DNA of 64,000 nt from Raja brachyura (Eukaryota): the NCBI GenBank assembly GCA_963514005.1, contig OY740797.1, positions 17,298,001-17,362,000 on the forward strand. Reading direction: 5' to 3'. Under the pieces are notes generated by a model. It made no database searches. It had not been told where the DNA came from and saw only the letters and a program-made list of their open reading frames with translations. Below, in pieces: positions 4,954 through 56,244 of the stretch. Position 1 is the first letter of the stretch. Each line of letters opens with the position of its first letter. A program made the translations under genes and the position numbers.

Positions 4954-5559
4954 GCTTCCAACAGCGTTGTCTCTGATTATTGTGCTCACATCTCTTATTG
5001 GCTTCAGACCACTTAGTCTTCAGACTCAGAGTCAAGGAGCTGAGCTTTGGCTGACATTAATTATATGCCAATTTCTTGAGATCTCTGCTGCTCTGATAGG
5101 AACATGATCTTGACTCGATCCGTCATCTATCCATGTTCTCCAGAGATGCGGTCTGACCCACTGAGATACACCAGCATTTTGTGTCTTTTTTGTAAACTGG
5201 CCTTTACAGTTCCTCATTTCTACTCTTTTCTGGGATGTCTTTGTTTGGATGCCCAAGTTCATCCCTTTGACCAACTTTTTATGTCACCCTGTATTAAATC
5301 TCTTCCTTTCTAGCCTGGCTTCCATTTCCCGTGTGTCTCTTTATGTGTGTACAGTTTATAAAAGCAGAGTTGTGTAAGTGAAACTGATGTACACTGGGGT
5401 GACATTTACAATGAATTCAACCTTTAATGGAGTGTAAAGCTGACTGAAGGGGAGTTTCAGAGTTGTATCTCTGAAATCAGTGTGCGGTTTTGTATTTTGA
5501 ATGAGACACGAGAGTCCCTTTCATTAAATAACCTCTACAGCAGTCAAACCTTTATGGAT

Positions 5560-5700
5560 CTTCTTCTTCTTGCATATGGCGTGCACAGCCTAAAGTCGTA
5601 GGACAACTTGTTCTATTTGATCTTATTTGATTGTGCACGCTGGGTTGATTGCATTCCTCGAAACCGGGCAGACCACGTGAAGGTTGCAATCTTCCACCCC
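5560..5700 (-). mobile_element. Complete 141-nt non-autonomous non-LTR element (Vingi/Ingi- or RTE-like) with an HDV-like ribozyme head and (GAA)n tail
   Basis: 13-bp TSD with one mismatch (aacctttatggat 5547-5559 / aacatttatggat 5701-5713). The minus strand starts GGGGTGG, ends ccatatgc(aag)n and has a 3' stem gcgtgcaca/tgtgcacgc. Confidence 0.85.
5647..5700 (-). ncRNA. HDV/CPEB3-like self-cleaving ribozyme fold (this copy probably inactivated)
   Basis: P1 GGGGUGG/CUGCCCG, P2 GAUUGCA/UGCAAUC, P3 ACC/GGU, L3 UUCACGU, GU, mini-P4 with UUCG, J4/2 GGAA (C expected at 5657). Confidence 0.8.
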
Positions 5701-5826
5701 AACATTTATGGATAGAAAAGATCTTGAGGAATGTGGGCAGGTGGGACTAGTATGGATGGGGCATGTTGGTCGGTGTAGGCAAGTTGGGACGAAGGACCTG
5801 TTTCCATGCTGCATCACTCTATGACA
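5701..5826 (+). mobile_element. CR1/HER1 LINE 3' end
   Basis: ggcatgttggtcggtgtaggcaagttgggacgaaggacctgtttccatgctg...ctctatgac terminal motif. Confidence 0.8.
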
Positions 5827-45420: not shown

Positions 45421-46184
45421 ATTCTCATGGTTATCTAGTCCTCACACCTGCAGCTGTGAAAACTGGTGTACATCAAGCATGCTTCCAGGGTTACACTCAA
45501 CTGGTGGGGTTACCCTATGATTTCTCCTTGAATCCCACTTTATAACTTCTCTTCCAAGCACTTGGCAAAGGTATCAACCTGAAACTTGCAGAGTCCTGGG
45601 TTTAAGAATAGTCTTGGCATCCATCTCCAGCCCAGGTGAGGAATACACGGCATCTTTCCCACCAGGTTCGGTCAAGAGGGAAAGCGAACATATTGGAAGA
45701 GGCCATTCCTTCTGAGTTCTCTGTGGAGCAAGGGGCAGGAATGTTTTCTCCTTCTATTCCCTGTCACTTGCCTCCCCATTCTAAACCAGAGTGCTGGTAA
45801 CATAGGTCACCTGAATGTACACTGCTCATAAACTGAAACCTTTAATTTCCCCGGTTAACACCTATCCGTTTGCCCAGTGGTCTGCTCCTCCAAGCCTGCC
45901 ATATTTACACAACGTGTCCATCTGCTGGGATTTGACTTTCTGCAATCTGAGAGTCTAAATGTCACGTTAATAGTTACAGTCCCGGATGGGGAGGGGGACA
46001 AGTAAACACTGCAAGTTTCGAGTTGCTGCAGACAGGGTGGCACAGCATAGTGTCTCATGTTACATTGATAAGGAAGATTTACTGCTTTTTATATATGCAA
46101 CATTATCTTAGGCAATGAACATATGGTGAGGTCCTGGACCAATCTAAATGTTGTTTAAAGAATAAAGTGGGAGAAAGCTTCATT

Positions 46185-46475
46185 TGTGGGCCCAAGCTCT
46201 TGGGAACTATGGGCGGATTATAGGCCCAGGCTCTGTGGGGACTGTGGGCCCCAGGCTCTATGGGCTCAGCCTCGGTGGGGACTGAGGGCCCAGGCTGTGT
46301 GGGGAATAGGCCCCCAGACTCGGTGGGCCTGGGCTCTGTGGGGACTGAGGGCCCAGGCTGTGTGGGGAATAGGCCCCCAGGCTCCATGGGCTCAGGCTCT
46401 GTGGGGACTGAGGGCCCAGGCTGTGTGGGGAATAGGCCCCCAGACTCGATGGGTCTGGGCTCTGTGGGGACTGCA
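46185..46475. repeat. GC-rich minisatellite, 63-nt period (~4 copies)
   Basis: actgagggcccaggctgtgtggggaataggccccca recurs at 46281, 46344 and 46407. Confidence 0.9.
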
Positions 46476-46749
46476 AGTGCTCTCTGGGGAGCAGATGAAC
46501 CTTTCTCAACCTGTAGAATGGTCTGCTCCAATTCTTTTGATTGGATTAGTTTCAGATTGGGTTGTAATGGTCCTGTAAAGGTATGTAGGTAAACATGCTA
46601 CCCGTCCCGACGTAGTGCGGACCATGGAATGCACCAGCAGAGCCTCGCCCGTGGCCCCGTCGGTCGGCAGCCCGGCCAGCTGTTCGATCTTCAGACCTTC
46701 GCTTACCGCCGACACCACTATCCCTTTTTCTCGTGGCCGATCATCGGTC

Positions 46750-56010: not shown

Positions 56011-56244
<234 letters not shown>

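What the first reader, a model, noticed from the sequence alone, without database searches (positions are those of the whole stretch)
5547..5713. Ribozyme-headed mini-retroelement: a 141-nt element that starts at G1 of a compact HDV/CPEB3-like ribozyme
Seen in sequence: the minus strand from 5700 reads GGGGUGG-AA-GAUUGCA-ACC-UUCACGU-GGU-CUGCCCG-GU-UUCG-A-GGAA-UGCAAUC. This maps onto the HDV double pseudoknot: P1 5700-5694/5671-5665, a perfect 7-bp P2 5691-5685/5653-5647, P3 ACC/GGU and a 7-nt L3 UUCACGU, with P4 reduced to a UUCG mini-hairpin (54 nt in total). The 13-bp TSD abuts G1, so the element's 5' end coincides with the predicted cleavage site. The remainder is a 3' stem-loop and a (GAA)n tail, with no tRNA A/B boxes. 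Established: UUCACGU is also the CPEB3 ribozyme L3, and HDV-like ribozymes process the 5' ends of R2, RTE and L1Tc/Ingi retrotransposons. Inference: a promoterless SINE-like family that cuts itself out of host transcripts and borrows a Vingi/RTE-type enzyme. This copy has G at the expected catalytic C (5657) and a G-G pair instead of G-U at the base of P1, so it is probably dead. It is antisense to GNAO1. I do not know whether the family has been described.
Basis: partly seen in the sequence, partly recalled or inferred. Interest (0 to 1): 0.88.

Follow-up and report, generated by a model that had tools for sequence, protein, structure and literature searches.

The report
Minimal ribozyme heads tiny jumping gene
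This is one damaged copy of a 141-base jumping element, present in over sixteen thousand copies, made of the two ends of a longer Vingi-type jumping gene; its first 54 bases are predicted to fold into an unusually small self-cutting RNA that would likely free the element from host transcripts.

Summary
Confirmed and extended. Window 5560-5700 (minus strand) is a 141-nt insertion with a 13-bp target-site duplication in an intron of a G-alpha(o) gene. The family has at least 16,197 copies; 92% keep the catalytic-position C that this copy has lost, and most sampled copies keep the G1-U pair. I found the parent: a 3.1-kb, single-frame APE+RT LINE without RNase H (Vingi-type, 'family F') whose first 81 and last ~45 bases make up the element, so it is a short internally deleted element (SIDE). 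Five other Vingi-type families of this genome and two from metagenomes begin with the same fold in different letters (142 of 144 pairs kept, 6-9 compensatory each). F and the SIDE lack P4, a minimal form that the one paper I read on it places in phages and metagenomes. Self-cleavage is untested; one polyA library shows read-through and no pile-up at G1, and 'promoterless' is unproven. Ribozyme-headed SIDEs are known (R2, NARTc/RIME); this combination was not found in seven literature searches. The scan noted an HDV-headed module on fungal LINEs elsewhere, not this family.

The parts
5560..5700 (-). 141-nt non-autonomous element (SIDE of Vingi-type family F), one copy of at least 16,197
5701..5713 (-). 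target-site duplication, 5' copy (13 bp), abuts G1
5547..5559 (-). target-site duplication, 3' copy (one mismatch)
5647..5700 (-). 54-nt HDV-like fold without P4 (predicted); this copy damaged
5694..5700 (-). P1 5' strand; G1 = 5700 = predicted cleavage site
5685..5691 (-). P2 5' strand
5672..5684 (-). P3 - L3 (UUCACGU) - P3
5665..5671 (-). P1 3' strand; 5665 is G here, U in 23 of 26 sampled copies; 5670 is a C-to-U change
5658..5664 (-). J1/4 (GU; its G can pair with the third base of L3 = P1.1) and a 5-nt loop in place of P4
5654..5657 (-). J4/2; 5657 is G here, C in 92% of copies; in the parent this junction reads C-UAA and overlaps the ORF's first AUG
5647..5653 (-). P2 3' strand
5620..5700 (-). 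segment derived from the 5' end of family F (69 of 81 columns identical to L304)
5607..5619 (-). junction, variable between subfamilies (looks like a short duplication plus a few bases)
   Evidence: origin inferred
5562..5606 (-). segment derived from the 3' end of family F (40 of 45 identical to L347): last codons, stop TAG at 5592-5590, 3' UTR
5579..5640 (-). predicted 9-bp stem joining 5640-5632 (5'-derived) to 5587-5579 (3'-derived); z = -2.7 for the 3' 87 nt
5560..5571 (-). (GAA)n tail
56050..56190 (+). host context: exon 3 of the G-alpha(o) gene; exons 1-2 lie left of the window
   Evidence: gene name from recalled motifs

Best explanation
The element is a 141-nt internally deleted derivative of a 3.1-kb Vingi-type LINE, and its first 54 bases are predicted to fold into a minimal HDV-like ribozyme that would likely cut the element out of host read-through RNA at G1, after which a Vingi-type protein likely copies it into new sites. 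Shown: bipartite origin from family F, target-site duplications of 8-15 bp, (GAA)n tail, 5' ends at G1, a fold supported by compensatory changes across eight families, a catalytic-position C in 92% of copies. Inferred: (1) a sense copy in an intron or UTR is transcribed by the host polymerase; (2) intact copies self-cleave 5' of G1, giving a defined uncapped 5' end shielded by the pseudoknot; (3) an APE+RT protein from F, or later from a sister Vingi family, binds the 3' UTR and primes reverse transcription at a nick; (4) new copies then decay, as the window copy did (G for C at 5657, G-G at the P1 base), so this copy is predicted to be inactive and, being antisense to its host gene, would not cut the host pre-mRNA anyway.
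For: Parent shares both ends: 13 F copies show the 5' head running on into an APE frame, and L336 (3,102 bp) carries both ends. Closest intact relative P0001: 1,019 aa, APE + RT, no RNase H family. Fold: 142 of 144 pairs kept in 8 representatives, 6-9 of 18 pairs changed on both sides relative to the SIDE; column shuffles reach at most 108; P1.1 switches from C-G to U-A in family B. Rfam CPEB3 model hits an intact copy at 19.2 bits, E 0.0034 in a 106-nt search. C at the catalytic position in 14,969 of 16,197 and 14 of 14 F copies. Among 56 copies the subfamily-level changes in the head fall on J1/2 (8), the loop (42), the free base of J4/2 (45) and one U-A/U-G exchange (32), whereas the body carries many substitutions and indels (same pattern in three other data sets). 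Single extra bases before G1 are T 6, A 3, C 2, G 2 of 13, so no cap-derived G (weak). R2 SIDE and NARTc/L1Tc ribozymes self-cleave in vitro (PMC3414825, PMC4035085 passages); P4-less ribozymes do too (PMC10879173).
Against: No cleavage assay. In one polyA RNA library (X24, about 6% read, 840 reads laid on L266) no place reached the pile-up threshold at G1, and 253 reads run through G1 into mixed flanks; strand of those reads is not separated and about 60% of the depth lies on one orientation, so this weakens but does not refute. Both Rfam hits are below gathering score (19.2 of 35; 14.4 of 44), the window copy gave none, and 15 loci scanned whole gave none. Only 5 of 30 and 12 of 40 sampled copies keep a strictly intact fold. 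Competing pairings exist: G2-U5 with 56-59 in the full-length window copy and a possible GU-UUCG-AC hairpin that would bury the catalytic C (seen in sequence). Some trypanosomatid elements with adequate folds were inactive (PMC4035085). No uninterrupted F frame among 60 matches, so the present mobiliser is unknown. About 8 of 14 F copies start 5-13 bases inside G1. The covariation parse was structure-guided and I chose the representatives.
Confidence: 0.72

Rival explanations
1. Dual system as in L1Tc/NARTc: the head is also an internal RNA polymerase II promoter, most element RNA is initiated at +1, and self-cleavage only trims read-through RNA.
For: Pr77 of L1Tc/NARTc is both (PMC3383444 abstract) and Vingi is the sister clade of Ingi (PMC5786205, PMC13708176); Kojima 2018 expects bipartite LINEs to be Pol II transcribed; 5' ends at G1 fit either model.
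Against: No excess of an extra G before G1 (2 of 13 single additions); no pile-up of RNA starts at G1 in X24; head sequences differ widely among sister families while the fold is kept.
Confidence: 0.15
2. The fold is kept mainly as a 5'-protecting, protein-binding or translation-start module; cleavage is slow or dispensable in the SIDE, which inherited it from F.
For: In an R2 system the ribozyme structure itself raises insertion efficiency (PMC11331408 section 6); the ORF start AUG of F, A and B sits at the J4/2-P2 junction; abundant read-through RNA; weak P1.1 (one pair) and no P4.
Against: The catalytic-position C is kept in all subfamilies and in all eight families; without cleavage or a promoter nothing would fix the 5' end at G1; the same paper found the C-to-A change strongly inhibitory.
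Confidence: 0.11
3. An ordinary Pol III SINE, or a chance resemblance to HDV.
For: A B-box-like stretch (3 mismatches of 11) overlaps the loop.
Against: The head is the parent LINE's own 5' end; no tRNA; 0 descriptor hits in 100 shuffles; compensatory changes.
Confidence: 0.02

Closest known systems
R2 SIDEs of Drosophila (Eickbush and Eickbush 2012, PMC3414825)
   Same: Ribozyme-bearing 5' end plus 3' end of the parent LINE, no ORF; the J4/2 stop codon of the parent is lost in the short element (here in 33 of 56 copies, while 13 of 13 F copies keep it).
   Different: R2 SIDEs are about 500 nt, rDNA-specific and few; this one is 141 nt, dispersed, over 16,000 copies, with a P4-less fold and an APE-type parent.
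NARTc / RIME / SIDER of trypanosomatids (L1Tc/ingi clade; PMC4035085, PMC3383444)
   Same: Short derivatives of an Ingi-group LINE that start at G1 of an HDV-like ribozyme; dispersed.
   Different: Protist hosts, 77-nt hallmark with P4 and with shown promoter activity; here a vertebrate, a 54-nt head, promoter untested.
Non-autonomous Vingi derivatives (hedgehog Vingi-1_EE; cited in PMC5786205)
   Same: Internal-deletion derivatives of a single-frame APE+RT LINE without RNase H.
   Different: The list of clades with a shown 5' ribozyme in that paper (R1, R2, R4, RTE, Ingi, LOA) does not name Vingi; the original paper could not be read.
Minimal HDV-like (theta) ribozymes (Kienbeck 2024, PMC10879173)
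   Same: P4 absent, short loop, catalytic C first in J4/2, cleavage site at G1.
   Different: Reported almost only from gut phages next to tRNAs; their search of human, mouse and protist genomes reports no eukaryotic case.
Mammalian CPEB3 ribozyme (Rfam RF00622)
   Same: Same L3, J1/4 GU, J4/2 CGAA, one-pair P1.1.
   Different: Single-copy, has P4; score is below the family cut-off; no shared ancestry shown.

Membership tests
SIDE (bipartite non-autonomous LINE) | 5' part equals the parent LINE's 5' end | tested here: met
   69 of 81 identical to L304; 13 F copies run on into the APE frame
SIDE (bipartite non-autonomous LINE) | 3' part equals the parent LINE's 3' end and tail | tested here: met
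   40 of 45 identical to L347; includes the ORF stop
SIDE (bipartite non-autonomous LINE) | Independent amplification with target-site duplications | tested here: met
   92 of 130 full-length copies with an 8-15 bp duplication; at least 16,197 copies
SIDE (bipartite non-autonomous LINE) | Mobilised in trans by the LINE protein | not testable with these tools
   inferred; no intact F frame found
HDV-like ribozyme | Nested double pseudoknot P1, P2, P3, P1.1 with 7-nt L3 | tested here: met
   family copies and 7 related families, 142 of 144 pairs; P1.1 is one pair
HDV-like ribozyme | Catalytic C first in J4/2; G1 paired | tested here: met
   family: 14,969 of 16,197 C; U opposite G1 in 23 of 26. 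The window copy itself fails both
HDV-like ribozyme | Mg2+-dependent self-cleavage 5' of G1 | not testable with these tools
   RNA reads inconclusive
Rfam CPEB3 / HDV-F-prausnitzii families | Score above gathering threshold | tested here: not met
   19.2 of 35 and 14.4 of 44 bits; none for the window copy
Minimal (P4-less) HDV-like ribozyme | P4 absent | tested here: met
   5 nt between J1/4 and J4/2 in SIDE and F; 17-46 nt in the other families
Theta ribozyme | Phage, beside a tRNA 3' end; published descriptor | tested here: not met
   vertebrate retroelement, no tRNA; the published descriptor file itself was not run
Vingi clade (parent F) | Single frame, APE + RT, no RNase H, about 3 kb | tested here: met
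   L336 is 3,102 bp; P0001 has Exo_endo_phos, RVT_1 only; none of 120 listed relatives shows an RNase H family
Vingi clade (parent F) | RT tree placement with named Vingi elements | not tested
   no named Vingi reference was available; hence 'Vingi-type'
tRNA/5S/7SL-headed SINE | Small-RNA-derived head with Pol III boxes | tested here: not met
   head is LINE-derived

The most novel reading that the evidence does not exclude
A P4-less, 54-nt HDV-like ribozyme, a form so far reported from phages and metagenomes, is catalytically active in a vertebrate and is the only expression device of a 141-nt parasite that reached over 16,000 copies, leaving some thousands of intact self-cleaving sites in host introns and UTRs; and a 5' HDV ribozyme whose J4/2-P2 junction holds the start codon is a general, so far unlisted feature of Vingi elements, including those being developed for gene writing.
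Probability: 0.5. Interest if true: 0.8.

Novelty: new variant of a known kind. Interest (0 to 1): 0.64.

Why it matters
It gives minimal HDV-like ribozymes, whose origin and function one 2024 paper calls undetermined outside phages, a clear eukaryotic context with a parent, a parasite and thousands of natural variants to test. It would define about the smallest cis-kit a LINE parasite needs (54-nt cutter plus about 45-nt 3' end). Six Vingi-type families in one genome all start at G1 of the fold, which suggests an explanation for why only RTE, Ingi, Vingi and R2 make bipartite derivatives (a question left open in PMC5786205) and bears on template design for Vingi-based gene-insertion tools (PMC13708176 passages mention a ribozyme only for R2). 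If intact copies cut in vivo, sense insertions would be mutagenic to host transcripts, a testable orientation bias.

Tried and rejected
Rfam on the window copy: no ribozyme hit; on 15 loci whole: none. Top 30 endonuclease hits in the genome were an unrelated two-frame LINE. Families A, B, D, E and G were each considered as parent and rejected: they share only the P3/L3 core and a GAAGAAG-type tail. A pattern for a long-P4 version of this head gave 34 matches, all short-element variants; a pattern joining the head to an endonuclease motif gave 14, all short elements (it missed F). 0 of 30 tail-picked and 0 of 40 core-picked loci were LINEs. No RNA holder was listed for the stretch. The strict descriptor found nothing in 353 kb of metagenome loci; of 5 loci with the start of the frame, 2 show a clear fold by eye (L361, L407), 1 a damaged one (L405), 1 none (L352), 1 lacks upstream DNA. 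Three key papers were not held (Ruminski 2011, Webb 2011, Kojima 2011), and Repbase/Dfam could not be searched, so a database entry for this family or a published Vingi ribozyme cannot be excluded. Seven searches showed no paper on this family; PMC3391268 passages added nothing. No earlier scan note on this sequence or genome. No covariance model was built, because the second pseudoknot helix cannot be modelled there.

Full report
Observation. Every helix coordinate is right, and a 13-bp duplication with one mismatch brackets the element, its 5' copy touching G1. I wrote an HDV-fold descriptor (P1 7 bp, P2 6-7 bp, P3 3 bp, L3 UYNNCGY, first P1.1 pair, J4/2 CNRA; features recalled, and a bulge option added after seeing family D). 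It gives no strict hit in the window and one relaxed hit, at 5700(-); 100 dinucleotide shuffles gave 0 and 0. The element is antisense in intron 2 of a G-alpha gene: exons 1-2 in L432, exon 3 at about 56050 (the name GNAO1 is from recalled motifs).

Family. The 141 nt have 996 first-look candidates in the genome; the 40 scored are full or nearly full length, 94-96% identical apart from the window copy itself. An exact 19-mer of the tail occurs 3,051 times. An 18-letter pattern over J4/2 and P2 gives 14,969 copies with C at the catalytic position, 1,026 with T (nearly all at a CpG in the rows listed) and 202 with a purine; reversed controls 0: 16,197 at least, 92.4% C. In 30 loci picked by the tail alone, 25 reach position 8 or better, 24 of 26 have C44 and 23 of 26 have U36 opposite G1. 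The window copy differs from the commonest letter at 8 positions, among them 31, 36 and 44, so it is a damaged copy, as predicted. Of 146 loci, 130 hold a full-length copy; 92 of these show a duplication of 8-15 bp (median 11) and 38 show none; 80 of the 92 start within -1..+2 of G1, 38 exactly at G1 (these sets were picked by similarity or by patterns, and ties were broken towards G1). Several subfamilies exist; mean pairwise identity is 87% over 56 copies. A strictly intact fold remains in 5 of 30 tail-picked and 12 of 40 core-picked loci, which would mean a few thousand genome-wide (rough extrapolation). Contigs of three runs, from coded organisms A, E and G, carry the family with the same ends.

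Parent. A Pfam endonuclease search led to an APE+RT LINE of 3.1 kb (L097, family A), and protein searches from it to further families B, D, E, F, G. Family F is the parent: L255 begins with the element's first 81 bases and continues into an APE frame; L254 and about ten more copies end with the element's last 40-45 bases, which include the last codons and stop of the frame. L336 (G000:C11, 3,102 bp) has both ends. The window copy matches L304 at 69 of 81 and L347 at 40 of 45. F has 62 candidates for its 5' third, copies are 83-90% identical to L336, and no uninterrupted frame was seen among 60 protein matches (that search used a stricter first look). A short copy sits inside an F copy with a 9-bp duplication (L340) and a D element sits inside a short copy (L157), so the short element outlived some F copies and overlapped in time with D. 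The nearest intact relative, P0001 (1,019 aa, 64% identical to a degenerate F piece), has endonuclease and RT families only, like the other listed relatives of about 1,000 aa. That fits the definition of Vingi given in PMC13708176 (passages); a tree with named elements was not made.

Fold. All six families begin with the same architecture in different letters. One natural copy each of the SIDE, A, B, D, E, G and two metagenome elements (L361, L407) keep 142 of 144 pairs; each differs from the SIDE by 6-9 changes on both sides of a pair; shuffling 3' letters among families gives a mean of 92 and at most 108 in 10,000 trials. The parse was guided by the structure and the copies were my choice (a second E copy with a deletion was left out of the count; L407 has G-G at position 1), so this is not a blind test. 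P4 regions are 17-46 nt in the other families but 5 nt in F and the SIDE. In the loci held (1.2 Mb, chosen for these families) all 55 strict rows lie at element starts. Rfam's CPEB3 model hits intact copy L266 at 19.2 bits (E 0.0034, cut-off 35) and the F. prausnitzii HDV model at 14.4 bits; wider scans found nothing. Folded alone, the 54 nt of L266 give P1+P3 as the best nested structure; in full-length RNA competing pairings appear. Subfamily-level changes in the head fall where the fold tolerates them (positions 8, 32, 42, 45), the body is much more variable, which suggests selection on propagating lineages (inference). In F the junction reads C-UAA-UG and that AUG runs without frameshift into the endonuclease in 7 of 13 copies (two of them with one stop); in A and B the AUG sits at the same junction. 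The UAA is kept in 13 of 13 F copies but lost in 33 of 56 short copies, as R2 SIDEs lose the J4/2 stop of R2 (PMC3414825 passages).

RNA. One polyA library (X24, organism G, about 6% read) laid on L266 gave 840 reads; 253 leave the element just before G1 into mixed flanks, and no start pile-up was listed; depth is 325 against 208 by first-mate direction over the core, with library strandedness unknown. So much of the steady-state RNA is uncut read-through, part of it antisense or from damaged copies. This neither shows nor excludes cleavage. Single extra bases before G1 are not enriched for G (2 of 13), a weak point against a capped start.

Mechanism. Most likely (0.72): host transcription, self-cleavage at G1 by intact copies, capture of the 3' end by a Vingi-type protein, target-primed reverse transcription. 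The bipartite origin and the fold are shown; cleavage, lack of a promoter and the identity of the mobiliser are inferred. Rivals: promoter plus ribozyme as in L1Tc/NARTc (0.15; PMC3383444 abstract), or a fold kept for protection or binding (0.11; PMC11331408 abstract and section 6).

What is known. Ribozyme-headed internally deleted elements are described for R2 and L1Tc/ingi (PMC3414825, PMC4035085, PMC6765202 passages); bipartite derivatives for RTE, Ingi, Vingi and R2, with Vingi absent from the list of clades with a shown ribozyme (PMC5786205 passages and section 23). P4-less ribozymes are described from metagenomes and phages, with no eukaryotic case reported from a search of human, mouse and protists (PMC10879173 passages and section 7). 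Seven searches found no account of this family or of a Vingi ribozyme, but three key papers, their supplements, Repbase and Dfam were out of reach. Verdict: new variant of a known kind, interest 0.64.

Noticed in passing
L097:1058, L145:4104(-), L167:1379, L251:~407, L256:527: Five more Vingi-type LINE families (A, B, D, E, G) in this genome, each starting at G1 of an HDV-like fold with its own P1/P2 letters and a longer P4; D and B copies are 90-96% alike.
   Followed up: partly
L361:54-130, L407:~3800: Vingi-type elements on metagenome contigs also begin with an HDV-like fold; L361 scores 15.8 bits on the CPEB3 model.
   Followed up: partly
F, A and B 5' ends: The first AUG of the frame lies at the J4/2-P2 junction; in F it overlaps a UAA (UAAUG).
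   Followed up: partly
L332:2452-3033: An intronless, uninterrupted ferritin frame (Pfam Ferritin, 123 bits) is inserted inside an F copy; likely a retrocopy.
   Followed up: no
L062, L073: Short elements with other middles; L062 keeps more of the F 5' UTR and 3' frame, suggesting independent deletion events.
   Followed up: no
G000:C1:14794470-14951971: A tandem array of about 11-13 kb units carries pairs of short-element copies in opposite orientation (list).
   Followed up: no
L192-L195 and rows ending near query 220-250: Many family B matches stop after about 240 bases; B may have its own internally deleted derivatives.
   Followed up: no
L448:9531-9671: The next copy of the short element lies about 175 kb left of the window, also on the minus strand.
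   Followed up: no
L341: An F copy is interrupted by another retroelement with long frames that looks DIRS-like (label recalled).
   Followed up: no
window 46103-46600: A tandem repeat of about 48-nt units gives long open frames on both strands.
   Followed up: no
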